Origin: Seison nebaliae
Taxonomy: Eukaryota
Length of the DNA: 48,749 nt
Reading direction: 5' to 3'
NCBI GenBank assembly: GCA_023231475.1
Contig: JALJEE010002665.1
Span: forward strand, 1 to 48,749
Shown here: piece by piece, positions 13,841 through 44,031 of the stretch
How the letters are laid out: each line of letters starts with the position of its first letter
How positions within the stretch are numbered: position 1 is the stretch's first letter
Program-made: the position numbers and the translations under genes
Notes under the pieces: generated by a model
What the model was told of the DNA's origin: nothing
Databases searched by the model: none
Seen by the model: the letters and a program-made list of their open reading frames with translations, nothing else

Positions 13841-14944
13841 TCAGAAATTGAGAGTCATTTTTTCATGAACGTCAGTGGCTAATCCGTCGCCAACCGCCTA
13901 AAAAATTATAGATGAATAATTAGATATTTTAAATAAATTATATTAAATAAACATTAAAAAATTCGTCGAAAGATATTTTCCCGTCTTCATCCTTATCGGC
14001 GTAAATGATGGTTTTATCAACAATTTGTTGTAGTTGCGTATCTTTCAAATTACTCCCTACCATCATTTTCAATACCTGTTTGTTTTGTTGTGATTAAGAG
14101 AGATATGGAAGTGGAAAATAACTTGGAATAATTCTCCATTTCCAATATATCCATCTTTGTCGATGTCATAAATTTGGAAAGCGAATCGTAATTTTTGTTC
14201 TTTTTCACCTTTAATGCTGAAGATTGAGATACCTTCTATGAATTCTATAAAGAATTTAGAAAGAAAGAAATTATCACTGAATTTAAGCTAAAGAGAAAAA
14301 CCTTTAAAATCGACTTCTCCATTGCCATCGATATCGAAAATATCGATTAATCTCTGAACTAGAGGATTTTGTTGGAGTTCGGGAATATTAGTAAATTCTT
14401 CAGTGGACAATGCACCACTACGATCGATGTCGAGTTTCCTAAATCGTTTACCTAATTTCCTGACTTCTTCAGGATCGACTAGAAATCGAATGATTTTATT
14501 GAAGAAATGAGTGAGAAAACTAACACTTGTTGATAAGCTCAATGGGTAAGGAGGAGGTAATTCCCTGGAAAAGAAGAAGAAGTAGAAATAGATGATTGTG
14601 AGAAAGTAGATTAGATTACAAGTGGATATAAGTTGAAGAAAAGAAATTTTAGTTCGCCTCTAGAGAAATATGAGATGGGACGTATAATCTGATTTTCTAG
14701 ATAAAATTCATTAAACATTCTACTTCTTCGACGATTCATAGACTCGTTATTCTCCTTATAAGAAGAAGAAGAAGAAGAAGAAGGTAGAAGAATGGGAGAG
14801 TGAAGTGCAAATAATTTATATTTCTTCTCATTTATCATTCATTTTAATCAATCTATTAAATATGTAACGTTTCCCCCCCGCTCATACAATCCATCATTAT
14901 CAGGATGAGAAGAATAATAAGTAATAATTTCAAAAAAGAACCAT
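13841..14944 (-). CDS. PPP3R1: Calcineurin subunit B (4 EF-hands). Exons: 14944-14942 (ATG only, inferred), 14564-14525, 14478-14302, 14244-14123, 14075-13953, 13897-13841
   Basis: Spliced product [31 protein letters not shown]...[32 protein letters not shown]...[47 protein letters not shown]...VHEKMTLNF. The position of exon 1 is inferred from ATG|GTT. Confidence 0.95.
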
Positions 14945-16846
14945 TGAGATACGAATAAATGTTCAATAAAATTTCTTTTCCTTTGTTTGTAAGTGCAATG
15001 TAAATAGTTACAACTATTCCGTCCACCAACCAATAAAACTGTTGTTCTTTCCTACTGATATTTCGGTATGTGTGTTTATGCGTGTGACGACGATCAGCAA
15101 AGACGAGTTCTACACAAATCTGTTTATGTTCCGTGCACAACTCTTATAGATTATCCTCCAATCCATCGTACGACAGTTTATCATATTATTCCATCATTTT
15201 CCTTATTTACAATAATAGCTTACTTCCATTCCAATTTTCTCTTATTTTCCTTTTAATTTTTCATGTTCTTTATCATCCTCACTTCCTATTTAATTCTAAT
15301 ACTCCTCCTAATTTCATTAATGGAATCTATTGAAACATTTCTAATTTTCCAAATGATATTTCCTGATTAATAAATTAACTTTTTTTTCCTTACAAAATAT
15401 CGGCTGTCATCAATTCAACAATTCTTCACGAACACTTTCAAAAATACAGAAAAAACTTCATTCTAACTCTGTACCGAACTGGAATTTTACATAATATGTT
15501 CATTTTCCAGTTTTAAATTGAACATAATTTGAAGGTTTTCTCAAAGAAAATTCTTGAGAATGAATTTATTAAAAAAATATACTTGAAAATTCCACATATA
15601 AAACTATAAAATAAACTTCAAATTTATTTCTGTTTTATAAATTACTGGTTACTTGCCACAGTTTTCAAATACAATTAACGTGGCGGCATCTCTGAAAAAG
15701 TTTGGTGAAAAACAAATATTAAAATAATCCTAAAAAAATAAATGTATACTCTTAATCCATTAATAATATGATTGATAAGATTATTCGTTTCAAGTCCAAA
15801 ACTGGATATATTAGTTACCAGATTGAGAGAATGACCATTAATTATATTTCAGTTACATAAATCTCCTCAAACTACATTTCATATAGAAGAAACATGATTT
15901 ATACATTGAACAATCTCATATCTTTCATAAAACCAAGTTCAGTAGAATACATGAATAAATAGAGGGAAGAAGTTGAGAGAAGAGTTTGGGTATTCTCAAG
16001 AAAGATTTTAACAAGATCATATCATGAGAATGATGTTGAGCGGAAGTTTTTAACTGCTTCTTCAAAAATCATATTTAAAGTTGATTTTTGATTGAAGTCG
16101 ATTAACATAAAGAAACTTCACGTAATCTTGTGATATGTTCCATTGTATTTTATTATCATCTGTTTCCCTTCTATTCATTCATTCTTGAACGATACTCCAA
16201 ACAACAGTTTTTGCCTTTCAGCCAAACGAAACACTTATTTGTTTGAAAGAATTGTATGTGATTAATTTGAAGTTCTTGTTTGGTGAATGGAAGGCGAGTA
16301 CAAATATTATTTGCATCATATGTCGAGAAGTCACGTTCAAGTTTGTTTTCGATAATATTTGTTCACCCCCAACTTGTAGTGACTGAAAGGTAAAAAAAAA
16401 GAATAATTTTTTTCTTATCACTAAACACTTTCCTGTTATACCAATTGACAAATGAAGAAATTTAATATTTTTCTTAATTGTCCATTAAATTGTTGTTAGA
16501 GGCGAAAAGGAATTGAAAAAAGAAAAAGTTGAAAATCCAACGGATATAACTACCTCAACATAATATTGATTCAATTTCCATAGTTACACTTTTAACACCA
16601 TCAGTCTCATATTAGTTTTTATTACATGATCCGTCAATACATTTCTTTCCAAATGGGAGAACGTATTGCATCAAATAAAAAAAATAATAAACTAGAAAAT
16701 CTATCCTTCACAATCTTTTTCTTTACCTTCTACTCTCCATCCATCAGATTCATCAATCTTGAAAAAGCGAAGGAAAAAAATTAGATTAGACCGACAAAAA
16801 ACTGAAACGAAAATTTAGTATCGAAAAAAAAAAGTTTTTTCCCCAA

Positions 16847-18326
16847 ATGCCATCGAAAGGAAAGAAAGCTCCACCGAAAAGTAAAGAACCGAAAATTGAT
16901 GATTTGACGAAATTGAAAAACGAGAAAAATGTTAAATTATTTTAATGACTTAAAATGATCGAAATTGAATTTGAAGGAATTGGAGGAACGTTTGGGAAAA
17001 CTCAATCTTTCGATTTTGAGAAATAAGAAATTTCTTAAGAAGGAAAGTTCCATTGACAAATTGAAATGTGACGATTTGACGATAGAGGAAGCGTTTCTTG
17101 TTGACGAGAAATCCATCAATGGTTTCTGAATTTCTAATTATTAAAAATTTGATTTTGTTGAGATTAGCCATTTTTGCTGCTATGGAATTGCAGGCGACAA
17201 AAAATGAAGAAAGTGGAAAAACAATTTTGGAGAAACGAATAATTAATGTAACTGACGAATGTCGTCGATTAGACGCCTCACTCACCATCAGTCAATCAAG
17301 AAATAATACTTTGACGAAAGAATTGAGATATCTTAAAATCGAAAAACAAATTTGGGAGAGAAATGCGAGACAACTCAATAGTTTGATTGTTGCTGAAATG
17401 ATAACAATTCGAAATAAAATTATACCACAAAATTGTCAAATGAAACCGATAACAGAAATGATAGGAGACGAAATAATTGAAGAAGAAAAAAATAAAAAGA
17501 AAGAAAAATGTTCGGTCATTCCTAATTTCATTACAAAACATTATGGAGATCTGACAACTCTACCACAAATTGATAAACTTAAAGAAACTAATTTGAATGC
17601 AGAAGAGAAAGAACTTTTCAAAAAATTTCAACGAATTAAAATTCTATTCAAATCAATTTCAAATAAATCTACAGATGAATTCAATAAATTATCAACGTTT
17701 TTATTCTAATCTATTTCCTCAAACTTTAATTTTAGTTCCAGTTCTGAAAGTTCAACGAAAACTCCAAATTCACTGACAACTAATAACGGAAGTAATACAA
17801 CAATAACTGGATTATCTATCTCTCCAAAAACACAAACGAAAAAAGGGAAATTATACAAAATCGATTCGATCTATTCAGATATATGGAAAAAAGAACTAGA
17901 AAAGTTAGGAAGGATTTTGTAAAAGTTTTTGCTCTAAATTTATTTTTATGAAATTTTCAAACTTATTTTTTAACTTAATTTTCTTATTTCCTTTATAATA
18001 TATTTATAATTATATAATAATGGTTCAATTATCATTAAAATTATTATTTCTAATTTTTTGATCGATGAAAAATTATTATATGTCTATTCTCTTCTTTTAG
18101 TTTTTATTCGCCACAATGGAGTTTAGAACGTCCATTGATCGTCTCGAAGAATTCTTCTATACAATCCACAATTACCGGAACAACGTCGACGACAAATCCG
18201 ACGATAAAACGAGGAATAATGAAACGACCACAAATCGTAGATAATTCGAAAGTTTTCCTCACTGATTTAAATGAGAATTGTCATTTGTTGCCCAATCGAT
18301 ATCGACGTCGATTGGAAATAAATTAA
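16847..18326 (+). CDS. Uncharacterised coiled-coil protein. Exons: 16847-16930, 16977-17121, 17168-17696, 17736-17903, 18101-18326
   Basis: Starts MPSKGKKAPPKSKEPK. Four GT-AG introns join the ORF-track pieces 17098-17709 and 18135-18326 in frame. The middle is heptad-like. Confidence 0.7.
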
Positions 18327-18416
18327 AAATGAAAAAATTTATTCAAATCTTTTTTATTATTCGAAGGAAATACGTATCGATATGTTTAATAATAATAATC
18401 ATCTATTAGAATAAAG

Positions 18417-19106
18417 TTAGAACTTCATTTTGTGAGGCATCATCTTATTCTTGATTGAAAATTTGGTGGCGAGATATGCTCGTTCATCCGAACCGATTAA
18501 TTTTAAAATTTGACTATCGATATCTTTTTGTAATTCTTTTCGTTTGTCACTTACTTCATATTTCTTCTGTTCTTTCACATCGAATACATCTCCTTTACGT
18601 TGGAGATTCTCTTTCTTTGATCGATCGAAAAATGAGTCAGTCATTTCTTCTGATAATTTCAATTTTGATACATCGATCTTTAAACTACTTGCAATCACAT
18701 ATTTTTGACTGATACGTCTCAATGGACATCCATTGACAACGAATGGTCCAGTTGTTAATAAAAGACCAGTTGATTCCATTTGTTTAAGAAGAACGACACG
18801 TTTTCCTTTATAAGGACCAGCTAATAGAATTAAAACGGTCCCTGGTGTCAACGATTTCCTCAATCTCACAATTTTCTCAATTCGCTTTCCTTTAGGATTC
18901 TTGTTAATTGTTCGCTCATTTCTATATGCACGAACTGGTAATCTGTCGTACACATCTTTTTCCATCTTCTTTCCTTTTCTTTCCAATTCTAATTTCTTCA
19001 TTTTTGGCGCCATCAATGCCAATTCTTTGTCGACCAATTCATTGAAATATTTTTGTCGTTGGGCGACGGGCCGTTTCTGGGAAAATGTGCTTTTACCTTT
19101 AACCAT
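18417..19106 (-). CDS. RPL6: 60S ribosomal protein L6 (eL6); coding region intronless
   Basis: LRKSLTPGTVLILLAGPYKGKRVVLLKQMESTGLLLTTGPFVVNGCPLRRISQKYVIA and the C-terminal YLATKFSI...PHKMKF. First ATG at 19106. Confidence 0.97.
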   Translation of the reverse strand: MVKGKSTFSQKRPVAQRQKYFNELVDKELALMAPKMKKLELERKGKKMEKDVYDRLPVRAYRNERTINKNPKGKRIEKIVRLRKSLTPGTVLILLAGPYKGKRVVLLKQMESTGLLLTTGPFVVNGCPLRRISQKYVIASSLKIDVSKLKLSEEMTDSFFDRSKKENLQRKGDVFDVKEQKKYEVSDKRKELQKDIDSQILKLIGSDERAYLATKFSIKNKMMPHKMKF

Positions 19107-19678
19107 ATTTTTCAAGTTGAAAGAAAACTACACGAAAATTATCTGACAATTAAAATGAGAAAATTAAAGAGGAATTACGTATATCTTGGTGTATGTTTAA
19201 AAAAAAGGTAGAATTGTTGTTTCTAAATTACACGCGTGAGAAGAAAAGCTTCAAATTTAAACATGAATTAAAATTAAAATTTTCATTTATAACGGGATAA
19301 AATTGAATATAAATCGATGAGAAATTCCTTATATTTCTTACTTCCTCCAAACTATTATAATAAACTTATTTCCACTTAAAATATTATTATATATTTATAT
19401 ACTCAATTTTTCGATAATCTCAAATTTGAAGTTTTTAATTTTGAAAGCACAAGAAAGAAATAAGTAAATTAGAAAGAATAATTAATATAATAGGTCATTC
19501 AACATAGTAAATTAGTTAGATTTCAGTTTTCTACCAGGACAATCAAAATTAGAATTAGAATATATAGTTCAATTTTTTCGTTTCCTTTTTTGTCAATCTT
19601 TTCTCCTCTACTTTGAGGAAACTTACGGAAATTTACTTCGATTGATACCGCCATTAATTTGTTTGATTTGCGAGAAGG

Positions 19679-20363
19679 ATGGGCGACACCGAAGCAGTAC
19701 AGTCCTCAACGTATCTAAATATTCCACAGATTTACGCAGCAGAAAAAGAGATTTATCCAGACGCTTGGGATAACATCATCAATAGTCATGGTACGACACC
19801 GATGGATCGTCGTGCCATAATGATGAGAGGTAGCAGTGGAGAGAATTCTTTTTATAATGCAGCGTCTGTTAAGAAATTAGAATTAGAATTGTTACAAAAT
19901 GAAATATTACATGAACAACAAGTAGATAATGAATTTCGGAAATCTGTTAATTATTTCTTTATTATTTTCTATTGAAATCTTTTTTTAGCTATTAGAAGGT
20001 CGAGATGAAACGGAAGGATCACTTCTATCGACAGGTAGTTATGCATCCATAGCTGTATCGGATGTTCATCCAACTAAAATGTTTATGGCGAAAGCAGCAA
20101 AACTTCAAGTTGAAGTTGAGAGTGGTAGGAAGACAGCGTCTGAAATTTTGATGGAACAACGTCTCAAATCCATTATAACGGCGAAGAGTTTAAGTGCCAA
20201 ATATGGAAGTCATCGAAATGATATAAAGAAATCGGTGATAAAAAAATTGTTTGGACGATGTCTTCCTCAACCGACGAAATTGCCGGAAGAATTTACTTTA
20301 GTTATTCCACAAATCGTTTTCCATCCAGCTGAACCAGTTACGGAACCAGACATATGGAATTAA
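19679..20363 (+). CDS. Uncharacterised 213-aa protein; exons 19679-19945 and 19989-20363
   Basis: A 43-nt GTT..TAG intron (19946-19988) joins two ORF-track ORFs in frame. Confidence 0.7.
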
Positions 20364-20480
20364 TAAATGATGGACGGAATCGTATTTGGAAAAGTCTCCA
20401 AAAAATATTTTTAATAAATAATTAAATTTGAAAATTGTTTCATCCACCGAAAGTTTTTGGAAGATAATAAAATAGGAAAA

Positions 20481-23400
20481 TTACGAGCGATTCTTTCCAA
20501 TTAGTTTCTGATGAATTTCCATCATTTTCTTCGCATCATAACTTCCTGATGGTTGTCCTTCCGTTCTCTCCATCATTTCGATACGTGTCTTTTGCTTCTC
20601 AATAATTTTCTTCATTCGATAAATTGTCAATTCTAATTCTTTCGTCGATCTTCCACTTTTTCCGATCTGAAATTTATTAATAAGAATTTCATTTTTCAAA
20701 ATTTCAAACTTTCCGAACACTACTATTGGAATCAGTAGATATTTCTGATGGTTCCTTCTCATCGAAATGTGGCCGAACATTTCCACTGTTTCTGATAACA
20801 TCTTTGAGATTTTCTAATTTTGGTTGATATAATAGAGATCTCAATTTCTTTTGCAATATTTCGTTCTCATCTTTCGTCGATAATAATTCTTCCTCTAATT
20901 TCTTTATTTTAATATTATATAATTTATCTGAAAATACTTCGATAATAATTAGGAAAGAAAATGATGAAAAACCTTTCTGATTTGGTGATTTACTATTCGG
21001 TGAATTATTTTGTCTCATATGAATAAATTCTTTTTTCACTTTTCTCGCTTGGTTTCTAAATGACGTTAAGGGAGACACTTGTTCATATGGTGCCAATAAT
21101 TCTCGTACACTATTCCTATTCATATCTCCACCTGCCCATTGAGCAGCTGATAATGAGAATGAAACGAAAGTTTTATTTAAAAAATTATTATTAAACTTTG
21201 ACTATTTCCAAAATCTATCGAAGTATTTTGAGATTTATTCAATAATTTCTCTACAGAAATAAATTGATAAGAATTGAAAGTTTGACAAAATGAAACTTGA
21301 TGAAATATTCGATTTAGGTTCAATATTTCTGTTTACTTTTATTGGAACTTTCTTTGATTTTTGATATTTGTTCAATTTCTTCTCATTCGCCAATTCTTTC
21401 TTTAAATTCTCGATTTCATTTTGGAATGCCTCCATTCGTTTTTTCAGTAATTCTTCAATTTTCTTATCGTTCGCAGAGTTTCTTCTAATCACACTAATTT
21501 TCGGTTGTTTTAATAACTTCTCAATCTCATCTCTAGCATCTTTTAACGCATCTGTCACTACCTAAAGTGTTTCCAAAATAAAAATATTTAAAAAGTTTTT
21601 CAATACAAAATTAATTTTTAAAATTTTCAACGAAAAATTTTTTAAAAAATTTTTCTATATAAAATTTCCAATTATATAAGTTTTTCAAAAAATTTTAGAA
21701 AAAATCTTATAAAGCAAATTGAGAAGTGTTGAAATAGAGTTGAAAAAAGAAGACTAACAGAATGTTCTCGTTCCTTATCTAAAATCTTCTTACGATACGC
21801 TTCGCAAATATTTTGGAGTTGATCTTTCAACGATTTATTATTCGTTTTATTCGTTTTATTCAGTTCTAGATCAACTTTCAATTCTTCAAGTCCTTCATCG
21901 AATATCTTCCGATATTTACGAAGTTTCTCTTCCGCGGATTTCATAACATCCTGACATTTTCTATTGACATCATCCATCGCTCTTTGACATTCGTCCTCCG
22001 TCGATATTTTATCTTTCCGCAATTGATGCGCTTGTTCATGAAGAATTTTTATTTCGTTATTCAATTCTGCAATTTGTAAATTCTGTTGATGAGAGAATTC
22101 TTCCAATTCATTAATTCTCTCCAGATCCTTCTCTGTTATCAATTGATTTTGATTGAGTAGTGATCGATCTAACGATAAATGAATTTCATCTTTCAAATTC
22201 TCAATGTATCGATTGTGACTGTCGATGATTTGTTGTTGGAGATTTTTTCGTTCCTTCTCATGTTCCATGACCAGATTTGTCGTATCGATTTTCATTTGTT
22301 CAATCAATTTCTGATAATTGAGAATAGTTTCCTCTTTCGATTTCAATCGTTCTTCAATTCCTTTCACCATCGATGATGCTGCCATTGCCATTGCTGAATT
22401 CTTTGCAAATATGATATCTTCCGTTTCTAATCGATCACTATGACGTTCGATATTTCCGAGGAATATATCTCGGTCATTAGTATTAGGCAAATGTCTCCGA
22501 AGAGTGTTAATTATTTCATCTTTCTTCAACGATTTCATTTCTAATGATTTGTTGACCATTTCCAATTTCTCTAATTTCTCATCAACTTTCTTTTTCTCAT
22601 TCGATATCGCTTGATACAATTTATGTAATCGTCGAATATTCTCTATTGATTGATGTAATTGTTCCGGTAACGTTAACAATTCGTTCGGCATTAAATTCGA
22701 TGCAACTTCGAACTAAAATTAAATTTATTTTTTAAAAATAAAATAGTTTTAAAATTTTCTGGAACTTGTTTAGCTGATAAAATTATATCTTTCTGATAAG
22801 ATTCTAATTGAGATATTTGTCGTTCCAATTCAATTTCTCTTTCTTCCCAAATTAATTGTTTTTCCCAATTTGTCTTTTAATTCGAATTAAATGAAATTAG
22901 AAAAAAATTTGGAAAAACTTTATCAAGCTCCAGTCGCTCGTCTTCAATTCGAGTCAATTTTTCGTCTTGTTGATTGATCAAATTTTCAAGAAATTTCTCT
23001 TTCATTTTCATTTCGTCAAGTCGACGATTTTGTCTCATTTCATTGAAATCTTCTTTCAATTTCTTCTTTTGTAATTCCATCAATTTTTCCGTAACTGATA
23101 ATTTTTTTAAGTTTGTATTTTTTAAAATTTTAAATTAAAATCTGTACGAACTTTTATCATTTTTTACACTTTTCAATAAATCAGCGAGACTTTCTTGTTG
23201 TAATTGTAATTCCTTCTTTTTCAATTCCAACTATATTATCATGAAAATTTATTATCAGAATTCGATTCAAATAGAAATGAACTTGAAATTTATCTTCTTC
23301 AATTTCGATTTGTTTCGTTCGAATCTTCTTCAAAATGCATTTCCTTTCAATCACTTCCTTTATCAATTCTTCTTGTTTATGTTGTGGTAAGACGTTTCCG

Positions 23401-26400
23401 TAACGATTTCTCATATCTCGAATGATGGAATTCAAATACTGTTTCTTTCGACAATATTCGTTACGGATCTGGAAGATGGTCGAGTAGAGATCACTATTCA
23501 TTTTTTCAATTCGATAAATTTGAGTTTCCACAACTGCATTTCGTTTTTGTTTCTTATGTAAGTTCCGAAGAGCTGTCGCTTCACTAATTTGTAACGAGAC
23601 GATTTGTCGACTTAATTTTCCTGAAGAAAATTAAATTTTAAGAAAAAAAATTTGAATAATCATCAAACCAATTTCCGTTTTCTCATCAGTTTTCGATTGG
23701 AGATTCCTCAATTGCCATTTTAGACTAATCATTTCTTTTGCTTCATCTTGATGAATCGCTTTAATTGCTTGTACTTGATCAGTTGCAATATCAGCTATCG
23801 ATCTTAATCTCATCATCTTTGAGGAAAAAACATTTTAGAGAAATCGTTTAATTAAATTGGAAATTAACTTCAGTTCTCATTTTCTCATTCTCCTTCTCGA
23901 ATTCTTTATTTGTTTCGTTTATTTGACGTGCTTCTTCTTTATTCAACGTCATCGAAAGTTCATTAGTCAATTCGACATGTTTCCCTTGCATATCGAAGAA
24001 ATCTTTGGACATTTTATTTATCTTCTTCTCCAATTCGATATTTCTCTCTTCCGTTTCTATCAATAACTTCCGTTGTTCTCCATACATTTTCTGAGCATGG
24101 TCAGCTCGTTGTCTTTCATTCAATTCTTTCATTTCTAATATGATAATTCGTTTCGATTGTGATTGATCATCTAATTTTGATTCATTCAATTCATTCCCAG
24201 TAATTAAATCATCTGAACATAAATCATCAATTTCATCTATAATGAAATAAATGAAGAGAATTAACATTTTCCAAGACGATTCGTCAATTTCTCCACATCC
24301 GTTTTAGTTGTTAATTCATTTGGATTTGTCAAATTCTTATTGAAAATATCTTGTCGCTCCACCTGGGGAATAAGTTTCGAGAAATTTTTCATTCTCATCA
24401 AATTATCTTCATTGATCTCTTTCTCCTTTTCCAATTGTTTCGTCAACATTTCCGTTTGGGATAATAGTCGTTTATTTTCCTCCTAAATTTCGTAGAAATT
24501 TACATTATCATATAATAGAACTTCCATATCAGATTGTTGTCTCTCCACAAAATTTGATTCCATCTCCTTCGTTAACATTTCATTATACTTCAATTGTAAT
24601 TCACTAAATTTCCGATTCATTACTTCCATCTGTGGTTGCGGTACTGAAATCAACAATTGTTTTTGAAGAGTTTTTATCTAAATTTTCGAATTTTCGAAAA
24701 ATGATTCGGTCATTATCCTTAATGATGAATTAACTTGAAATTGAGAAGTATTTCGACATTGCTCAAGAAACGTTAATCGTAATTTGATAGCACTGTCACC
24801 TTCCACCAATTCATGGCGTAATTTTGATTTTTCCTGAAATTTTATCGAAATAATTTTTTTTCAAATTTCAACTATAAACTTTCAATAATTCTTGTTCGAT
24901 CTCTTCCAGTGCCGTACATCTCCGTTTCAGACTTTTCTCGTTGAATCTGAATAAAATTAAATTTTTCGTTTTCTCACTCAATTCTTTCTTCATGTCATCT
25001 GTCGATGATGATGATTCGATTGTTGATTGAAATTTCTAGAAATTTTTATGAGAATGTGAAAAAATTTTAAATTTCCAACTTCTAATTCTTCGATTTTAAT
25101 TTCCTTCAATTCATTATCATTTTCCAAATCAGCAACTTTTTTGGAATCTCGTTCGGAATTCTTCTTAAGTTCTTTCTTGAATTCCTTTAATGGAAATCAT
25201 AAGAGAATTTTTATTGACAACGAAAAATTGTAACTGTAAAGTCTTTGTACAATACTCCCAATTGATTTTTCATTATTTGATATTTGTCTTTATAATTCAA
25301 ATAATTTATTTGTAATTCCTTACTCGATTTCTGAGAGACACTCAATTCCTGAAAGAAATTGATGAATAGATCGATGAATTTTATTTATTGTCTAACATGT
25401 AAAGTTTGCACTAGATATCTGTTCAATTCTTCGATAATCGTTCGACTACTAGTGGCAATTTTCAAATTATTCTGATCATCTTTAACGAATTTCATTCTTT
25501 GATCAATTATTTTCGTTGTCCATCGTTTCTCGTTCCCATTCACATCTCTCACTTGATGCTGAAGAGATTTTATAATTTTTTACCTTTCAAATTTAAACTT
25601 TTCTTAATTGCGATATTGTTTCCATAAGATCCGTTTTCACTTTAGATAATTCACATTTCAATTCGATACAAAGATTCTTCAGCGCTTTACTATCTCCTGA
25701 ATTGGAACTGAAATTTTGGTTATTCGTTTTCAATAGTTCCAATTCACTCTTCGACATCTGATGAAATATATTAAATAAATAAAGAAAATAATTAACTATT
25801 ATTGTATCTTCTTTATCAATTGAATCCTTTATTGATAATAATTTTTCTTTGAACTTCTTCAAAATATCTTCGTTAGATGGAGCGAATGAATATCTGGAAA
25901 AACAAATGTTATAATTTTTTAAAGTTTAAATAAGTTTGATGATTTTAAACCCTTCGTTTCTAGTTCGTAAATCATCGGTCAATTGTTCCAAAAGAACCAC
26001 ATCATCAGCTGTCAAATTTAAGGTGGATGCATAACTTCCAATTTGTTTCGTCATATTTCTCAATTGTTTCTTTAATCGAATTCGTTCACCTTCCAAATCT
26101 TCAACCTCTTTTCCGAGAATGAGCAACATAGCTCGATCTTCTTCTTTTTTGGCGAGACGTTTCGCTTGTACACTACTCAAATCGACATGTTCTCGTTCTG
26201 GTAAATTTAATCGATTACGGAATTCTTCATTTTCATCAGTGATACGATTGAATTCCAAATCCAATTTATTCACTTCTTTTACTAATTTCTCGATAGTTTG
26301 ATCACGGAAGTAAACAGTTTTCTTTACCGTTCGGATCTCTTCAACTGCATCAGCTAACTGATAATCTCCTGATTCATATTCTCTCATTCGTTGTTCCAGT

Positions 26401-28172
26401 GAAACTAATGTCGACTCTTTTTCCGTCATCGCTTTCTCCAATTCCATTTTTTCTTTTTCCGTATCGTTCAAGTCTTTCTTCATATTCTCATTGAGAGTTT
26501 CTAGAAAATCGATTTTTGATAATAATCCATCAGTCGTCGATAATTCTAATACAAGATAGAAATAATTATTTCTTAATAAAAATATTGAAAAAAAAACCTC
26601 CTCTATTAATACCACCTCGAATATTGTCAACTTTACTGCTAATCAGATCAGTCGCTTCCCGTAATTTCTTTGTTAATTCTTTTACTTCCAAATCACGTTC
26701 TTTCAGTTGCTTTTTATTCAATTATCATCACTTCAATTTAATTCAATGCAACTAACCGATTTGATGATATTCAAATTATGTACTTGATCCCATTTTTCCA
26801 TTTCTTTCATTTTATCTGTTAATATTATGATTTCATTCTTCAAATTATTAATATCATCATCCTTCACCGTTAATTGACTCTAAATTAAATCAGATCTAAT
26901 AATTGTGAAGAATTCGAAAATTAACTTTCCATTTCTCAACTTTCGTCGATACCAAATTCATTATTTCATCATCTTCTTGTTCTTTTATTTGTAGTTGTGA
27001 TAACAATTCTTCGATCTATAAAAATTATGTATTAATTCACTTATCATTCAAAAATTAACCTGCAATTTCAACTTTTCATTCTCCTGTTGGATTTCATTAA
27101 ACGTTTTATATTGTGCTTGGAGAGAATTGTCATGTTGTGTAATCTCTTCCGTTGTCTTCTTCATTTGATGTTTCGCATCGATCATTTCCTTTCGAGCAAC
27201 ATCTAAATCTCGTCTTAATCGATCATTCTCTTCTAATAACATCTACAACAACCCTCAAAATAGAAGAGAATTAATTTAAAATTTATTAACCGCATTCTCA
27301 TCCAAAACATTATTGAAATCAGTATTCGATTTTTTCATCCTTTCTTGTAATTCACTTAATTCTCCTTTCCTAACGGACATGATTCGATCCGATTGGATCT
27401 TCGCCAACTGTTTCCGTCCATCGGCAATTTCTGCTTCTAAAATTTTTTTCTAAAAACCTTTACCAAAACACGAAATGAATGAGAATGTAACTCGATTGTC
27501 CAATTTGTTAAAATCGTTTTCAAGTTTTTTTATTTTATTTTTCTGTTTGTCAATAATTTGCGATTTGTCTTTAGCATCATCTATTCCATTCAATATTTCC
27601 TTCACATATATTTCCCTTTTAGTTATTTTAGAAATAAACCTTCTGCTTCTTTGAGAGCTTCCATATAAATTTCTGCTTTTCTTTCCGCTCCGATTAATTG
27701 AGCACGAAATTCTGAATTCATTCCCGGATCGAAACTCTGATCTATTCGAGTAGACACACGCTAAATGAATAAATTTGAAGAAAAAATAATATTCGACAAA
27801 TTTAACTTTGTCAATTGCAACTTCTTGTCTCAACATCTCGATAGTTTCATCTGGAAAAATTTTGAAACATTTCCATAAATTTATCATTAGAACCTTTTTC
27901 CACTGACGCGTTGTGAATTGTTTCATATTCTTGACACATTGCTTCAAATTCATTCCTCCTCACTACCAATAACGTTTGTGAGATAGCGAAAGCTTTCCGC
28001 AAATCATCCTCATCATCAATATCATCAGGAGATACCTGGAAAAAAAAATCAGAAAATTAAAAGAAAGGAAAAGAACTTTAATCAGATCATCGAAACAATC
28101 TTCGAGATCACTCGCTTCTGCTTCTTCAAGATCGATCTTTCCAATCTTCGACCAGAATCCTGTTTTACTCAT
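20481..28172 (-). CDS. CEP290: Centrosomal/ciliary transition-zone protein CEP290, ~32 exons
   Basis: Conserved blocks RMREYESGDYQLADAVEEI...RDQTIEKLVKEVNKL...DENEEFRNRL, MKKELSEKTKNLILFRFNEKSL, LEMKELNERQRADHAQKMY, QSKTDEK and IGKSGRSTKELELTIYRMKKIIEK. I joined ~31 short introns in frame by hand (first: 28036-28076). Confidence 0.92.
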
Positions 28173-28343: not shown

Positions 28344-31597
<3,254 letters not shown>

Positions 31598-31630
31598 TAA
31601 ATTTGCTTCTAATTTGAATTTGTAAAAATT

Positions 31631-32644
31631 TCAAAATTTAAATTTATTCAATTTCTCAATATTTTTTGAATTGGATTGTTTCTCTAATCGGTCGATAAGA
31701 AGACATGCTTGACAGATGGATTGGGATGTGAATTCGCCACATCTCTCACAAGACGATAATGTTCGTTGATTAGTTTGATGATTAGCGAATGATAATTGTT
31801 CAGCTGAATGGATGATATTTATGATGGATTTCGGATCAAACATTTCCATTTGTTTAATTAATGAACGAACATATCCACGGAATGCGAGAGGTGAATAAAT
31901 ACATTCAGTTCTAAAAAAGAATAGAGAAATTATAAAAAGAAAAAGAAAATAAAACGTAAAATAAAGTAATCTCCTTAAATGAGCATACATCACAATCTCT
32001 TTCTCGTAAGTATATTTAAAGGGTTTTGATCGTGGTAAATTGTTTTTACTTCCTGTTACTAATGAGACACATCGCTCTAATTGTATAGCGTTTCCACGTT
32101 GCATATTCATTAGAATTGTCTCCGCTATATCATCGGCGTTATGACCTGTAACTATTTTGGTAGCTCCAATAATTTTAGCACCACGATTTAATGCCTGTCG
32201 ACGAAACGTTCCACAATAAGTACAATTATTCCTATTACCCATCAATTTCACGATCTCATCCATCGTCCATCCAAATACGTCTTTATACGAAAGAATTGTT
32301 AGAGGCAAATCATAATCGATTTGATTCTGTTTCACAGTTTCTAACGAATCGTCTCGATATCCTTTTATTCCTTCGTCGATCGATAATAAATGAAGATTGA
32401 GACCATAATCATATTTGTCATTCAATAGTTTCATAACATACGCGAGAACCGTACTGTCTTTCCCACCACTTGCTCCAATAGCTACTATGTCATTTCTTTC
32501 GAACATCTTACCATCAACGATGGTTCGATGAATCTCAGTCTCGAATTCTTCGAAGAAACATTGGGCACATAATACTGCACGTGTGACAGGTCGCAGGATT
32601 TTCGCTACATCTTCTCCACATCGTTCACATTTCTTCTTCCCCAT
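31631..32644 (-). CDS. CTU1: Cytoplasmic tRNA 2-thiolation protein 1 (Ncs6); one 45-nt intron at 31911-31955
   Basis: PP-loop ASGGKDSTVLA, IDEGIKGYRDDSL, NCTYCGTFRRQAL, TGHNADDIAET, KPFKYTYEKEIVMYA and CxxC pairs. Removing the intron restores YFTTECIYSP. Confidence 0.96.
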   Translation of the reverse strand: MGKKKCERCGEDVAKILRPVTRAVLCAQCFFEEFETEIHRTIVDGKMFERNDIVAIGASGGKDSTVLAYVMKLLNDKYDYGLNLHLLSIDEGIKGYRDDSLETVKQNQIDYDLPLTILSYKDVFGWTMDEIVKLMGNRNNCTYCGTFRRQALNRGAKIIGATKIVTGHNADDIAETILMNMQRGNAIQLERCVSLVTGSKNNLPRSKPFKYTYEKEIVMYAHLRRLLYFTFYFLFLFIISLFFFRTECIYSPLAFRGYVRSLIKQMEMFDPKSIINIIHSAEQLSFANHQTNQRTLSSCERCGEFTSQSICQACLLIDRLEKQSNSKNIEKLNKFKF

Positions 32645-34684: not shown

Positions 34685-35074
34685 TTATACAGGCAAATAA
34701 CAAGTCGGCGGTTTACAATTGCTCCAATATTTTTTTTGTTTAATGACATAATCCTTGTCGTAACATTTGCGGGAAGGACAACATACACCACTCATCGGTC
34801 TGTAACAGGTGGTCCCTTCTTCACAATCACAACCTTCACAGACTTCTCCTTTTTTCGCAATTCGTTTTCGACAACGACCAATTTTCAATTGGGATCCCAT
34901 GAAAAGGTTATGGAAACTTTGGAAATGTAAATCGACTAATTCATCCGCTCCGGGATTCACGCAACATTCTCCTTTTGGACATTCACCGGAACTAGAACAA
35001 TGTTTGTCTTCGTCATGTGTTGTCTTGCACAAGACAATGGAGAGAGTAACCAACAGAATTAGTAAAAATTTCAT
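34685..35074 (-). CDS. Secreted Cys-rich peptide, colipase/prokineticin-like fold with a Cys-rich C-terminal extension (paralogue A)
   Basis: Signal peptide MKFLLILLVTLSIVLC. Pattern C-x5-C-x4-CC...C..G..C..CxC..G..C with 14 mature Cys. A TATATAAA lies ~50 nt upstream. Confidence 0.85.
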   Translation of the reverse strand: MKFLLILLVTLSIVLCKTTHDEDKHCSSSGECPKGECCVNPGADELVDLHFQSFHNLFMGSQLKIGRCRKRIAKKGEVCEGCDCEEGTTCYRPMSGVCCPSRKCYDKDYVIKQKKYWSNCKPPTCYLPV

Positions 35075-36337: not shown

Positions 36338-36730
36338 CTAGTTTAATTTTCTAGGAAAGAAACAAGTTGGTGGTTTACAATTGCTCCAATATTTCTTTTG
36401 TTGAATAACGTAATCTTTGTCGTAACATTTGCTAGGTGGGCAACATACACCACTCATCGGTCTATAACAAGTTGTGCCTTCTTCACAATCACATCCTTGA
36501 CAAATTTCGCCTTTCTTTGCCACTCGTTTCTGACATCTTCCAACGATCAACTGCGGACCACCAATTAATAAATGGAAATTTGGGGATGAAAAATCCACCA
36601 AACGGTCAGTGTTTGGATTTACACAACATTTTCCTTTCGGACATTCAATGGAACTTGAACATTCTTTCTTTTCAACTGTCTCATTTAGGACTGTTGATAT
36701 CAAAACTATAAAAATAATTATGCATTTCAT
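36338..36730 (-). CDS. Secreted Cys-rich peptide, colipase/prokineticin-like (paralogue B)
   Basis: Signal peptide MKCIIIFIVLISTVL. Same 14-Cys frame, sharing GCDCEEGTTCYRPMSGVCCP and QKKYWSNCKPPTC with paralogue A. Confidence 0.85.
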   Translation of the reverse strand: MKCIIIFIVLISTVLNETVEKKECSSSIECPKGKCCVNPNTDRLVDFSSPNFHLLIGGPQLIVGRCQKRVAKKGEICQGCDCEEGTTCYRPMSGVCCPPSKCYDKDYVIQQKKYWSNCKPPTCFFPRKLN

Positions 36731-37211: not shown

Positions 37212-40200
37212 ATGATATTTTTCCTTTTAATTCTTTCATGTTTCAATCAAATTTTCTCCCAAGAAATATGTGACGAAAACTTTATCGTCCGAACTTTAAT
37301 GGAAGAGGAGACACATGAAGATTTCAGTATTGACTTGCATGATTATTGTAAAATGACGAATGATCTCGAATTTGAGGAGTTGAATAGAACGACAACACCA
37401 GAATTTTATCAGCATTATAATTGGAATAAAAATGGAGGTGTTATCCGCAAGAATAATAAGGAATTATTATTCAAAGAGATTAGCAAAACAATTTTTGATG
37501 TGAAAATTTCTCGTTTAGAATTCATCCCTAAAATTATTCGAGTCATAATTTACACGAAGAAGAAAAGGAGAAACATTCCGATTATAAAGAATGAGAAGGA
37601 TTTGCAATATATTCTCGTATCTGAGAAAATCTTATCGTTACCATTAATTATAACGAAAGTTGAGGGTTTCGACGAAGATGAAGATGATAAATTAAAATAT
37701 GAAATAAAACAATTAAACGAATTTAGCAAAAAATTAGACATCCATCCATTTCGAGGTATCATCTCAACGGAAGAAACATTTGATAGTGAAATTGATGATG
37801 AATTTCAATACGAGATCACTGTCCGAGATATGGACAATAATACCGTTTCAATGACAAGTACATTGAAAATTATTGATGAAGATGATAATCGAATAGAATG
37901 TGATTCAGAGAGATTTCTCATCAATTTGGATTTGAAGGCGACGAATGAAGAACGGGAAATTCTTTCGTTTTATTGTTACGATAAAGATTCGTCAGATATT
38001 TGGTCGACAATCGACGGACGGATCGAATATATTCGGCCGAATATTCCTCAATTTTATTTGAAAGATTTTGTGGCAAAATCTCATCGGAATAAAATCAAAT
38101 TAGCTATGAATGGATTACCACCGGTGGATTGGATGTTGTATCATAATTTTCAGATAAAAATCATTTTAACACCCAACACCACAACAATTATTAGTGATCC
38201 AACAATAGTTTATGTTGTCATTCAATTTGCAGATATTAAAGGAAAAACCGATTTCTCATCATCATTTCTTCCGACGTCCACAAATCCGATAATTCAAGTG
38301 CAGGAGAATGTTCATGCGAATGTTCCATTCTCTTATTTGAGTTTGAACAAACAACAATCTTATTCCGATTGTCGATACGAATTGGAGAATAATCGAGACC
38401 TTTTCCAGTTAATTTCAAAAAGACAATTGGAAATGTTAAATTGGAGAATTGGAGAAGTAGTGGAATCGATTGACGATAGACAAAATTGGACTCATGGAGT
38501 TTATGTTCAAACGATGTCGAATCTTTTGGATTTTGAGAAAAGACAAAATTATCAATTGAAAATTTTAATAAAGTGTGGACGACGATTAATTCGTATGGAA
38601 GTGACGATAAAATTGATCGATGTTAATGATAACAAACCAATTTTCACCGAAGTACCACCAGTCTCATATATCGATGAACGGAACACGGATTATGAGGCAA
38701 CATTCACTTGTATCGATCGAGACATTTCTGCTCCATATAATCAAATTCGTTACTCGTTCACTTCTTATGATCATTATTTGTTGGATAAATTTAGTTTACA
38801 TTCAACTTCTGGTGTATTGAAACAAACAAAGAAGATTGATTATGAGAAACTCAAATTCGATAATCCATCATTTAGTGGAATAATAACATTGATGATAAGT
38901 TGTCGAGATCAGGGTGAATTGATGGAATTACCAAATTATCCGATACAACCCCAAACCTCATTGATCACTTCGACGTCATTACAAATTGTGGTGAAGAATT
39001 TTAATGAACATCCACCCCAATTCGAATCGACCATTTTCGTTAAAGCAATTATGGAGAGCGAGAATATTGGTACGATGGTCTCATTACCTTTGGCATTCGA
39101 TCGTGATGGTGATGAAATACATTATCAATTTTTGAACGATAATGACGAAGTAAGAAAATATTTCATTTTAAATCAATTGAATAATGAACTTCGATTATAT
39201 AAGAATATCGATCATGAAATTTTGAAGGAATTGAGATTTACGATTCGAGCTACTGATATATCGAAAGATAATACCATCTCTCATTCCACGAATTTAATGG
39301 TAATATTATCGATTGATGACGTTAATGATAATAGACCAGTTTGTCGACCATCAATTTTGACGATTGATTTGGAGAGCAAAGAATTTGATGGCGAACTCGC
39401 ACAAATTCATTGTGAAGATAAAGATGATCATTATTCAATTTTAACGGCAAAAGTCGACGATGAAGCTGATAAAGACGTGATAAGAATTGAGAAGCGATTT
39501 AATAATTTCTCTTTCATTCTCAATCAACTTCCTTCCACTTTAGTCTCCAGATATGTTATCACTATATCAGATAATGGAGAAGAACCATTATCTGATAAAG
39601 TGATTTTAATATTGAATAATAACAATCGAAATCAATTGGAAATTTTAGATGAATATTCAACCACTTTTCTTGTCAAAGAGACAACTCGTATCGGCAGTTT
39701 AATTGGGAAAATGAACGCGATTGAATTAACTAATTCCTCCATTTCTTATCATTTCACTTCAGAGTTGGAAGATGGAAATGAATTAATCGTAATCGATGAG
39801 AACTCTCAAGAAATGACGATAAATCTCAAAGATTTTCCATTTGAAATTCTGAAACAATCGGGAGAAATTATCACGAAAGATTTCCTCGATTATGAAAAAT
39901 ATGAATTTTATAAATTTAATTTGACTGTGCAATCCGTTTTATTTCCAGGAATCATCTATCAACAACAGTCATATATAGTGGAAGTGATTGATGAGAATGA
40001 TAATCGACCAAAATGTTCCTTAATCAACAACGTAGAGAATGACTTGATTCAGATATCGAATAACATTCCTGCCGATATCATAACGGAAATTCATTGTTTT
40101 GACAAAGATAAAAATTCGATAACTCAAATAAAAATTACTGATCAATTCTTTCTCAATTATAAACCTTTGACAAACGAAAATGATTTGGAAGAGATCTTCG

Positions 40201-43200
40201 CTTTAGACGAAATATCGGAGGGAAAATTTCAATTGAATTTATTGAAGAATTTATCATTAAATTTCGATGAAGATAATATTATTCAATATATCATTTTGTA
40301 TGAGATTATCGATACAGAAAAATATGTTGAGAAGAGAAATTTGAAAATCGAAATTTTGAAAGATGCGTTAGGAATCATTTATTTATCCGAATTGACATCG
40401 ATGAGAATAAAGTTGTGGGAGAATGAACCGATTGGTAAGAAGATTATCGAATTTCCAAATCATTCCGCAAATGAATTAACTATCAGTTCCGGTCCATTGA
40501 ACATATTTGCGAATTATGTTTTTCTTCAAAAAACTTTAGATCGAGAACGAGAAAGTTCATTCCAACAAACCATTAATTCTCCTAATCGTCAAATGACAAT
40601 CGATGTAAATGTAGAAGATGTGAATGAATATGCACCAGAATGTCAATTTAATGGACAGAATTCTTCTCTCGAATTCATGACATATAGCGAGAATGAATTC
40701 CAAGATAATATCATAACGTTCTCTTGCATTGATCGGGACGCCACAAAAATTGATCAATTCAAATTTGAAATATTTAATTCGATCAACGAATTAGACGAAT
40801 TGGAATCCATTTCCAAATATGAAGGCCAATCGAAATTTTATGATTCTCAATCACTCAAAATTCCAACACGATATTTCTATTTGTCTGCTAATAAATTGTA
40901 TAAACATTCTTCAATTTTCATTCCAGCCGGTTCCTACGAAATTACATTGACAGTATCTGATAATGAAAAGAATGGAAATGTTCGGACATATCCAATCACC
41001 ATTATGGTCTTTCCCACATTATTCTTACCAGTCTTCCAATCTACCAGGGAAGAAATCATCGATCTACCAGAAAACACAGATATCTCCATCTTTCTCATCC
41101 GTTTGGAAGTGGATTTATGTTATGTTGATCCATATCTTCAATTGAATTATACGAAACAATCATTATCATATAATCTCCAATATTTCAAATTCGAATTGAT
41201 GAGTGACATAGAGAATCTTTTTGAAATCGTGGATAGTCAAATAATTGTGAAGGATTATTTCGATTATGAGAAAGCAAAATCAGCGAACATCTCAATAAAA
41301 GTCACTGCGAATATCGAAAACTTTTTTTATGAACAATTCAAACAAAATGAAACGATTTGGAATTTCATTAAAGAACATGAATCAAATCTCAACATTCTCA
41401 TACAATTGTCAGATGTTAATGATAATTATCCCCAAATCATCAATATACCAAAAAAACCGTTATCGATTGAAGAAGAATTAGAAAATGAAATTTCAGTTTA
41501 TCAATTCCAAGCGATAGATGAAGATGAGAACGACATCATTTATTTTCAAATTGATGATGAGTCGTCGAAAACATTTTCAATTGATCAATTATCTGGTAAT
41601 TTGACGACACGTTTCCCCATCGATCGAGAAAAGACAAATCAGTTCATTGTGGAAGTAATCGTCTCCAATGAAGTATTGAATAGTTCTACGGAAAATTTAT
41701 TCTCCGTTTATTCCATCATAATCAATATAATCGATATTAATGATAATATACCAGAATTCCAAAGAGATTTATTAATTTTGAAAGTTAAGGAAGAAATTCC
41801 TTTGGTCACTCCATTAGCCATTTCACAGATTGATGAAACTAGAGCGATTGATCGAGATATGGAAGAGAATGCTCATATAATTTATAGTATGAATAATAAT
41901 GAGAATTTTGAAGTCGATTCAACCACTGGTCAAATATTTCTCATCAAGACATTAGATCGAGAAATGAAAGAATTTTACGAATTTGAAATTTATGCACAAA
42001 ATCCAAATAAACAGGAGAAGAATCAGATGAATGTGATTGTGAATGTGAAAGATGAGAATGATCATTTCCCACAGTTTAATGAAAGAGAAATCTCATTGGA
42101 AATCGTTTCGGACAATATCGAATTGAACAAACCATTTTTTCAAATTTCTGCCACCGACAAAGACGATTCGAATACGCCAAATGGAAAAATTAATTATTTC
42201 ATTTCTGCAAATGAAAATTTTGAAATTAATAAATTCTCGGGAAATATTCGTTTGACTTCTCCACTACCAAATGAATCTGATGTTATTCTATTAGAATGCA
42301 GTGCATGTGACGAGACAACAGTGCTCATGAATCGTAGAGAGAATTGTACGAAAATGAATTTATATATCAAAATAATTTCAACATCATCAGGAAATTCGTT
42401 GAATAATTCCACGTTCAATTTTACTTTATTGGAAAATTCACCGAAAAGTTTTTCGATAGAAAATTCTCGAGAAAAATTATCATCCAGTTATAAAGATTAT
42501 GAATTCTCGTTAATTTCTTCAACGGAAAAGGAAATGATTTGTTCCACGAACAACTTCCGAATTAATCCGTTAACTGGAGAAATCATTCAACTTGTTCCGT
42601 TTCTTTCTAAAATGTTCAAAATTTTTCTTTCACTTTTTTTAATAGGAAAGTATCGATCGCGAAATGGATTGTGAAATTATCCGATTGTTAGTTAAAGCAA
42701 CGACTAAATTGAAATCAATTCGATTACTGATCAATATCATAATTTTGGATATAAATGATAATCTACCACAATTTCCTCACAATATTCAACATTTACATTT
42801 CTCCGAAAATATTCGTGATGGTTTTCCTATATTGTCATTCTTTCTAATTGAAATATTTCTCAAAAAATCAGGAACTTTACCTATAGAATTAGCTCAAGAT
42901 AAAGATGATGATTTACTGTCTTATCGAATGATTTTCAATGATGATTATACAAGAAATTATTTTGCATTAGATGAAACTAATTCTCAAATCAAATTACTCA
43001 AATCTCTCGATTTTGAAGAATATGAAGTTCCTTTTCCAATTTATTTCGAAACTTCAGTTTATTTTCCAATTTGTTTCGAAATTTTCATAATAACTTCGAA
43101 TTTGTTTATGATTTTAAAATTTTAATGATTTTCTAATTTTTTGTAGAAATTTGTATTTGTCATCGAAGCGAAAGAAAATTTAACAGAAGAACAAAATAGT

Positions 43201-44031
43201 GTTCAATGTGAAATTGTTATTGAAGTTGATGATATCGATGATTCAGCAGTTTTAAGTTCGAAATTTAAATTGAGAAGAAGATCGCATAAAAACTTTTAAA
43301 AATTATATAGCTCGAACTAAACCGATTTTCGTCAATGAAATTTTACCACAAACATCAAAAAAAATTTTATCAAATTCTTTAAACAGTAAATTTATTCAAT
43401 TTGGTGAAAAGAATTATGTAAAAATTAATAAGGAAACGAGCGAATTAAATTTGTTGAAAGAAAAGATGTGGAAGAAGTCGATGAAAACGAAAAAAGATCA
43501 GACATTTCTATATTATATGGAAATGAAAGATGAAGGAGATGGGAAAATGAAATTCATTTCAAAATATACACCAATTATAAAAGTTGATGCAGAGAACGTT
43601 ATTAAGGTGCAATCGGATCTTTCTCTGACACGATTAGAGAAAATAATGAAATCGAAATATTCTAATAGATATTTAGATATTATCAATTCCGATAATGAAG
43701 AAAAGTTTGAAACCATAATTTTTGAAAAATTTCTAATTTCCATTCTAGAGCGGACAATTCTCGAAGTTCTCTGAAGGATTACGAGATGATCTTGTTGACT
43801 GATAATCAAATTCCCGAAATTTCAGATAAATTGGAATTTTCGAAGGAAATCGAATATTATTCCTGTGAAAAGATTAAGGAAGAAATGAAGGATGTTTTGG
43901 AAATAAAATGCGAATCGGTCAAATGGAATAAACGGTTTATAATTCTTTTGTCCGTCATAGTAATTGTAGTAGTTATTACAATTATTCTCATAATTTTGTG
44001 CATTCTGAAATTTGTATTTAAAAAAATTTAA
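37212..44031 (+). CDS. Large cadherin-superfamily protein (~17-18 EC repeats, single TM). First exon 37212-42593, then five introns starting at 42594, 42821, 43027, 43256 and 43704
   Basis: Signal peptide. Repeated LDFE/LDRE/IDYE, AxDxD and DxNDNxP motifs. TM segment FIILLSVIVIVVVITIILIILCIL near 43936-44007. The 3' end is uncertain. Confidence 0.9.

What the first reader, a model, noticed from the sequence alone, without database searches (positions are those of the whole stretch)
13841..43746. Near-universal GTT 5' splice sites: a rewired splice-donor code
Seen: I placed ~63 introns by frame and homology (CEP290 ~31, U2SURP 16, calcineurin B 5, cadherin 5, others 6). Essentially all start GTT (GTTAAT, GTTTTT, GTTTAA, GTTAGT, GTTCAT, GTTTCA...). 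No coding intron starts GTA, one starts GTG (29812), and one is ambiguous GTT/GTC (~24265). Positions +4..+6 are degenerate and the last exon base is often not G. Known: most eukaryotes use GTRAG, pairing with the U1 5' end (ACUUAC) and the U6 ACAGA box. Inference: this lineage has a compensatory U1 snRNA (for example ACUAAC, which would pair with GUUAGU) or altered protein-based donor recognition.
Basis: partly seen in the sequence, partly recalled or inferred. Interest (0 to 1): 0.88.

Follow-up and report, generated by a model that had tools for sequence, protein, structure and literature searches.

The report
Animal whose introns start GTT
In this stretch of DNA from the tiny marine wheel animal Seison nebaliae almost every predicted intron begins GTT instead of the usual GTA or GTG, while the rest of the usual start signal has faded, so its splicing machinery likely carries a rewritten recognition RNA, a change so far found in print only for amoebae in the searches run here.

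Summary
Confirmed. NCBI names the window's proteins as Seison nebaliae (Seisonidea). A gene finder blind to the third intron base picks GTT at 49 of 56 donors (background 0.42-0.46). The three deposited proteins map with 50 of 51 donors GTT, none GTA, one GTGAGA. Non-Seison homologues back the boundaries. The same method gives 4 GTT of 45 in other eukaryotes and 0 of 10 in two bdelloid-like loci, partly at the same intron positions, so old introns were converted in place. +4 and -1G sit at background; +5G is a faint residue. No RNA reads and no snRNA gene were reachable, so splicing itself and the mechanism are inferred: compensatory U1 about 0.45, U6/Prp28/Prp8 about 0.3. Closest published case: Entamoeba GUUUGU with U1 ACAAAC. 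No animal case turned up in ten searches. The scan noted GTT donors before on other DNA (Bonamia, other protists; unchecked notes).

The parts
13841..14944 (-). Calcineurin B gene (deposited protein SNEBB_002667); introns 14941-14565 GTTCTT (inferred), 14524-14479 GTTAGT, 14301-14245 GTTTTT, 14122-14076 GTTATT, 13952-13898 GTTTAT
   Evidence: positions aa15, 74, 114, 155 are shared with other animals that use GTA
16847..17922 (+). Unnamed gene, 3 predicted introns: 16931-16976 GTTAAA, 17122-17167 GTTTCT, 17697-17735 GTTTTT
   Evidence: donor-blind gene finder only; the third needs the stop fixed at 17922
19679..20363 (+). Unnamed gene, one intron ending 19988; donor ambiguous: GTAGAT 19922 or GTTAAT 19946 (same frame)
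   Evidence: scores 63 vs 62; left out of counts
20481..28172 (-). CEP290-like gene (SNEBB_002671, 2020 aa), 31 introns, all GTT..AG, 39-59 nt except one of 197 nt
   Evidence: no Pfam hit, named by homologues
24213..24265 (-). CEP290 intron 20: GTTAAT in the deposited model; GTCTTG at 24277 scores about equally by homology
28344..31597 (+). U2SURP gene (SNEBB_002672, 764 aa; RRM, SURP, CID), 16 introns, 15 GTT
   Evidence: human U2SURP E 1e-81
29812..29876 (+). The one non-GTT donor of the deposited set: AA|GTGAGA, canonical at +4 and +5; 65-nt intron
   Evidence: gapless alignment to human U2SURP across this junction
31911..31955 (-). In-frame 45-nt intron GTTTTA..TAG in the CTU1/NcsA-like gene (31631-32644)
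   Evidence: the unspliced frame carries a 15-residue insertion against archaeal NcsA at this region
37212..44031 (+). Cadherin gene; introns 42594-42645 GTTCCG, 42821-42886 GTTTTC (in frame, low penalty only), 43027-43146 GTTCCT, 43256-43310 GTTCGA, 43705-43748 GTTTGA
   Evidence: gene finder only, deposited protein not retrieved
7936..7980 (-). GTTTTA intron in a 1137-aa unnamed gene, outside the finding's range
   Evidence: gene finder only

Best explanation
Seison nebaliae introns in this window begin GTT at 50 of 51 mapped donors, and the spliceosome likely reads that third U through a changed U1 snRNA whose 5' end would carry A instead of U opposite +3. Shown: the +3U rule, the loss of +4A, most +5G and -1G, short (median 47 nt) AT-rich introns with a T-rich [T/C/A]AG end, and GTA at shared intron positions in bdelloid-like loci. 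Inferred: these are ordinary U2-type introns; each is defined across its short length; the donor helix has shrunk to G1-U2-U3 plus -2A, so the +3 pair became indispensable; after the partner base changed, old GTA donors were replaced one by one by GTT. At the later step U+3 would be tolerated opposite U6 G50 as a wobble. The lone GTGAGA donor would make up for its +3 mismatch with canonical +4A and +5G. The confidence given is for the U1 mechanism; for the donor rule itself in this window it is about 0.97, genome-wide about 0.9.
For: +3 is under positive selection for U, not merely relaxed: 0 of 51 A where intron background is 38% A; 15 in-frame GTA/GTG/GTC sites within 30 nt of mapped donors are not the ones used, and homology favours the GTT site in 7 of 8 testable CEP290 cases. 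Mean Watson-Crick pairs with a standard U1 end are 5.1 for Seison vs 6.9 for control donors and 6.5 for bdelloid-like donors; a U1 with A opposite +3 brings Seison to 6.0 (the gain is by construction, and the 11-nt U1 end is recalled, its core ACUUAC being). In the one published lineage with +3U, Entamoeba, U1 changed (ACAAAC) and U6 ACAGA did not (passages). -2A, +5G and +6W residues fit the normal register.
Against: No snRNA gene was seen. In most lineages with atypical donors (yeasts, Giardia, Trichomonas, Thecamonas, Micromonas) U1 stayed ACUUAC, though those changes are mainly at +4. +4 shows no preference for A or U, so neither ACUAAC nor ACAAAC is singled out. One A-U pair enforcing 98% conservation while the G-C pairs at -1 and +5 are free is odd for U1 alone. 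In yeast +3 faces U6 position 50 and is proofread by Prp28. The residues at -2, +5, +6 fit U5 and U6 as well as U1. No RNA junction was observed.
Confidence: 0.45

Rival explanations
1. U1 is standard or plays a loose role; the +3U is selected at hand-over to U6, either by a U6 change opposite +3 (G50 to A) or by a G-U wobble that makes up for the lost +5G pair, with altered Prp28/Prp8 proofreading.
For: In yeast +3 is matched with U6 position 50, U6 G50A pairs with A3U, and Prp28 E404 alleles improve A3U, A3G and G5 mutants, the positions changed here (PMC3632134 passages; PMC11331412 passages). +3 is also the most fixed free position in the bdelloid-like loci (10 of 10 A) while +5G is 2 of 10, which suggests a reader specific to +3.
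Against: Entamoeba keeps ACAGA with +3U. Relaxed proofreading explains tolerance of U, not the absence of A. Extra pairing at +3 can block the second step. U6 is far more conserved than U1 (own knowledge).
Confidence: 0.3
2. Protein-led or U1-independent recognition: a U-binding protein (TIA-1/Nam8-like, U1-C or Luc7 variant) reads GUU, and length plus AT-richness define the intron.
For: Very low donor information beyond GTT; 49 of 51 introns are 39-65 nt and 19% GC; U1-independent splicing and U1 loss have precedent (PMC10158995 passages); Entamoeba U1-C is diverged.
Against: A U-rich-binding protein would be expected to enrich U at +4 onwards; +4U, +6U, +7U are at background. No splicing factor of this kind could be examined.
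Confidence: 0.14
3. A standard U1 pairs one base out of register (A|GUUAAG type, known from rare human sites; recalled, and prompted by scan notes).
For: It predicts -1A and +3U; -1A is mildly enriched (28 vs 20.5, p 0.025) and GTTAAT is the commonest hexamer (8 of 51).
Against: It also predicts +4A, +5A and +6G: 17, 21 and 1 of 51 vs 19, 19 and 3.7 expected. Shifted-register pairing does not separate real donors from 116 decoy GTT sites (5.00 vs 4.80, p 0.15), whereas the normal register does (5.16 vs 4.38, p 3e-5) (decoys are mostly exonic, so composition differs).
Confidence: 0.06
4. Artefact: T-rich sequence, gene-model bias, assembly error, or a burst of new introns from one mobile element.
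For: No RNA evidence here. The deposited models come from a pipeline I could not read. In 4 of 7 CEP290 junctions with too little homology signal a non-GTT option scored up to 1.4 bits higher.
Against: Blind finder 49 of 56; still 37 of 51 with a human-like +3 prior; forcing GTA/GTG cuts CEP290 from 1986 to 570 aa. 16 of 31 CEP290 introns have no frame-keeping non-GTT donor at all. AT-rich control loci give 31 GTA, 2 GTT of 34. Run X5 contigs match 13500-22373 without a difference (may be the same source). Intron positions are ancestral.
Confidence: 0.03

Closest known systems
Entamoeba GUUUGU(U) donors with co-evolved U1 snRNA (ACAAAC) - Roy and Bowser, bioRxiv 10.1101/2022.06.08.495308 (passages read)
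   Same: +3U replaces +3A/G at nearly all introns; GT..AG ends; AT-rich introns.
   Different: Entamoeba is intron-poor with a strict 6-7-nt motif (+4U, +5G, +6U); Seison has intron-dense genes (31 and 16 introns), +4 free, +5G only 20%. It is an animal. Its U1 is unknown.
Mastigamoeba balamuthi GUGCGC donors with U1 ACGUAC (same preprint)
   Same: Intron-richer genome with a transformed donor.
   Different: The change is at +4, not +3; a conserved motif remains.
+4U/+4C donor lineages with unchanged U1 (Saccharomycotina, Giardia, Trichomonas, Thecamonas, Micromonas), linked to METTL16/SNRNP27K (PMC11732430 passages; PMC10581693 search listing only)
   Same: Lineage-wide shift of a donor position without change of GT.
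   Different: Affects +4 and keeps +5G; here +3 is changed and +4 is unconstrained.
U5-class donors AG//GUNNN (PMC11732430 passages)
   Same: Degenerate +4..+6 with some exon-side signal (-2A).
   Different: That class rests on -1G, which is not enriched here (13 vs 11), and does not fix +3U.
Shifted-register U1 sites in human genes (recalled; named in scan notes)
   Same: GTT start, often non-G at -1.
   Different: Rare exceptions needing +6G; +6G is 1 of 51 here.

Membership tests
Major (U2-type) spliceosomal introns | GT..AG ends that restore an open, homologous reading frame | tested here: met
   51 of 51 junctions have exactly one GT..AG placement; homology
Major (U2-type) spliceosomal introns | Purine at +3 (GTR consensus) | tested here: not met
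   1 of 51
Major (U2-type) spliceosomal introns | Removal from mRNA at these junctions | not testable with these tools
   No RNA holder listed; runs laid gave no splice joint
Minor (U12-type) introns | GTATCCT/ATATCCT donor (recalled) | tested here: not met
   No such hexamer among 61 donors
Entamoeba-type transformed donor with co-evolved U1 | +3U in nearly all introns | tested here: met
   50 of 51; 60 of 61, one contig only
Entamoeba-type transformed donor with co-evolved U1 | Strict GUUUGU motif (+4U, +5G, +6U) | tested here: not met
   +4U 24, +5G 10, +6U 27 of 51; GTTTGT 0 of 61
Entamoeba-type transformed donor with co-evolved U1 | U1 5' end complementary to the new donor | not testable with these tools
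   No snRNA gene in the window; no genome held
Shifted-register U1 donors | +4A, +5A, +6G and better pairing in the +1 register | tested here: not met
Introner-type intron burst | New intron positions with related sequences | tested here: not met
   All 4 mapped calcineurin B positions are shared with other animals; similarity among intron sequences was not tested
Shared trait of Rotifera-Acanthocephala | GTT donors in relatives | tested here: inconclusive

The most novel reading that the evidence does not exclude
Seison has rewritten the core of animal 5' splice-site recognition: U1 and perhaps the U6 ACAGA box read GUU, the rest of the donor signal is gone, and tens of thousands of ancestral introns were converted from GTA to GTT in place - an intron-rich animal with a new donor code, which gives a natural test of how a spliceosome and its introns cross such a valley together.
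Probability: 0.5. Interest if true: 0.88.

Novelty: new variant of a known kind. Interest (0 to 1): 0.74.

Why it matters
Why splice signals change wholesale in some lineages, and which part of the spliceosome changes with them, is an open question; the compensated cases in print are amoebae. An intron-dense animal with a near-fixed +3U and little else isolates one position, so its snRNA and factor sequences would say directly whether U1, U6 or a protein reads +3. A genome and transcriptome of the species are described (PMC8351084), so the test is a day's computation. Practically, gene finders with standard donor priors mis-splice such genomes: a human-like prior moved or lost donors, leaving 37 of 51 as GTT.

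Tried and rejected
This is no evidence either way. Whole genome: not held, so no snRNA or splicing-factor search. Rfam: 0 hits at gathering score, 7 weak non-spliceosomal hits at E up to 5. The deposited CEP290, U2SURP and calcineurin B clusters each have one member with NCBI sources only, so no transcript-derived copy was available. A calcineurin B tree was too weakly resolved to place loci; a direct search named the bdelloid-like ones instead. Branch-point motif: no CTAA/CTGA/TAAC excess in the last 40 nt against base shuffles. GC donors: none chosen when allowed. Shifted register and introner origin rejected. First profile run timed out and was repeated with 18 homologues. The annotation paper (Hagemann et al., Hydrobiologia, DOI seen) is not held; it or its supplements may describe intron signals. 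Control rows dropped: 53 of 80 loci were not examined (match span near three times the protein length, i.e. apparently unspliced or transcript-like); of 27 examined, 7 gave no intron, L042 duplicated L040, L076 and L077 were misaligned, leaving 17.

Full report
Source. A search with a calcineurin B exon returned a protein that NCBI names SNEBB_002667 of Seison nebaliae, on a contig of 48,749 bases, the window's length. Seison is a seisonid wheel animal living on Nebalia, placed next to Acanthocephala in PMC8351084 (abstract, passages and section 9 read).

Test 1, blind to the donor. I wrote a gene finder that allows any GT..AG intron and scores only coding potential, intron length and the acceptor. 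It chose GTT at 49 of 56 donors in six genes (3 GTC, 3 GTG, 1 GTA), against a background P(T after GT) of 0.42 in the window, 0.46 in non-coding DNA and 0.35-0.59 per gene. With a human-like prior against T (my approximate, recalled frequencies) it still chose 37 of 51. Restricting donors to GTA/GTG dropped the total score from 1530 to 996 and CEP290 from 1986 to 570 residues; restricting to GTT cost 11 points.

Test 2, deposited proteins. Spelling the three proteins exactly on the DNA leaves one GT/GC..AG placement per junction: CEP290 31 of 31 GTT, calcineurin B 4 of 4, U2SURP 15 of 16 with GTGAGA at 29812. 50 of 51 gives p 4e-16 against 0.46. How these models were made I could not read, so they are a second prediction, not RNA proof.

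Test 3, foreign homologues. A coral calcineurin B aligned to the window with +3-blind introns gives the same four GTT introns. For CEP290, 16 of 31 introns have no frame-keeping non-GTT donor within -45..+30 nt; of the 15 with a rival, 8 had enough signal against a profile of 18 non-Seison homologues and the GTT site won 7, losing by one bit at 24265/24277; in the 7 low-signal cases a non-GTT option was ahead in 4, by at most 1.4 bits. Human U2SURP aligns without gaps across the GTG junction. In CTU1 the unspliced frame shows a 15-residue insertion against archaeal NcsA, matching a 45-nt GTT intron. A weak extra hint: low-depth contigs in runs X1 and X5, many under 90% alike to the window, which would fit a second lineage such as PMC8351084 describes for the species, align over exons, and the 4 listed pieces that end on a donor side run 3-5 bases into the intron, covering GTT (13950, 25392, 25595, 25793, table 8; letters not shown, only 16 pieces listed).

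Controls. The same alignment on 17 intron-bearing calcineurin B loci from metagenomes gave 37 GTA, 4 GTT, 3 GTG and 1 GC of 45; loci under 40% GC gave 31 GTA and 2 GTT of 34 (dropped rows are listed under Tried and rejected). One control locus (L067) has GTT at both its introns. Two loci are 97-99% identical in protein to named bdelloids; their 10 donors are all GTA, with introns as short and AT-rich as Seison's. They are two copies of one gene and not independent. Positions aa15, aa74 and aa155 are shared with Seison: GTA there, GTT here. So AT-richness and short length do not produce GTT, the trait is not shared with these bdelloid-like loci, and old introns were converted in place.

Anatomy. 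49 of 51 introns are 39-65 nt (median 47), 19% GC, evenly spread over length mod 3; the acceptor is T-rich with T at -5 in 38 of 51 and T/C/A (24/17/10) before AG; no branch-point word stands out. At the donor, +4 is at background, +5G is 10 of 51 (3.7 expected), +6 is A/T in 49 (42 expected), -2A is 36 (22 expected by codon phase), -1G is 13 (11 expected) and -1A 28 (20.5 expected, p 0.025) (several positions tested, so the weaker p values are soft). The key point is that A is absent at +3 although A is 38% of intron bases: +3U is required, not just tolerated.

Mechanism. Something must read U at +3. From established knowledge the candidates are U1 (the base opposite +3), U6 position 50 and nearby proteins. 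With a standard U1 end Seison donors form 5.1 Watson-Crick pairs on average, controls 6.9; an A opposite +3 restores 6.0, by construction. Entamoeba, the published +3U lineage, changed U1 to ACAAAC and kept U6 ACAGA, whereas lineages with changes at +4 mostly kept U1 (Roy and Bowser preprint, passages; its supplements are closed). That precedent makes compensatory U1 my first choice (0.45). Against it, +4 does not favour any one variant, and yeast genetics shows +3 facing U6-50 with Prp28 proofreading +3 and +5, the two positions altered here (PMC3632134 and PMC11331412 passages): 0.3. Protein-led definition of short introns is third (0.14; PMC10158995 passages). A shifted U1 register fails on +6G and on the decoy test. 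The single GTGAGA donor, canonical at +4 and +5, fits compensation under either RNA model but is one case.

What is known. Ten full-text searches found no report of Seison or other animal GTT-dominant donors. 'Seison' with 'splice site' gives two papers: PMC8351084 has no donor analysis in the passages seen and no hit for splic/intron/snRNA/snRNP in its two supplements; PMC10125929 concerns lamins (passages). PMC12256650 has no 'splic' hit; PMC10639083 does not mention Seison; PMC10599564 (30 species) and PMC12690905 were seen as passages and add nothing on this. The library lacks most subscription papers, including the annotation paper, so absence from print is not established. Scan notes report GTT donors in Bonamia and other protists, one with a second U1; these are unchecked and not used as support. 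None concerns this genome.

Verdict. A real, strong and apparently unreported donor rule in an animal; a new variant of the 'transformed splice signal' kind, differing from Entamoeba in being intron-dense and in losing rather than tightening the rest of the motif. The mechanism is open but testable with existing data. Interest 0.74.

Noticed in passing
window 18417-19106 (-), 44951-46729 (-), 832-2151 (+), 2650-4656 (-): RPL6, a UTP15-like gene and two other long genes are single open frames with no predicted intron, next to genes with 31 and 16 introns: a very uneven intron density.
   Followed up: partly
window 2650-4656 (-): Intronless 668-aa GT4 glycosyltransferase whose best NCBIfam matches are bacterial glycolipid synthases, all below cut-off; no PDB hit at 1e-10. 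Horizontal origin is possible, not tested.
   Followed up: partly
window 34685-35074 (-), about 36345-36730 (-), about 44380-44830 (-): Three related small, signal-peptide-like, cysteine-rich reading frames; the first has no Pfam hit. The third was seen by eye only and may be degraded.
   Followed up: partly
L069:1740-2362, L079:939-1680: The bdelloid-like donors are GTA with +5G in only 2 of 10 and -1G in 3 of 10: the fading of +5G may be older than the A-to-U switch at +3.
   Followed up: partly
L067:443 and 683: An unidentified eukaryotic calcineurin B locus (49% GC) has GTTCGT at both introns.
   Followed up: no
window 29812-29876 (+): The only non-GTT donor of the deposited set lies in a splicing-factor gene (U2SURP), just before the SURP domain; a regulatory role is conceivable, untested.
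   Followed up: no
window 13841-13897 (-): The calcineurin B C-terminus carries a small insertion that looks shared with the Pomphorhynchus protein P0367, read by eye.
   Followed up: no
window about 11800-12900 and 33150-34500: GC-richer stretches without a good reading frame; fragments look like decayed retroelement sequence (by eye).
   Followed up: no
window 13500-28280: Runs X1 and X5 hold a second, low-depth set of divergent contigs over exons, with differing intron-region lengths at two places (86 vs 99 and 91 vs 98 letters).
   Followed up: partly
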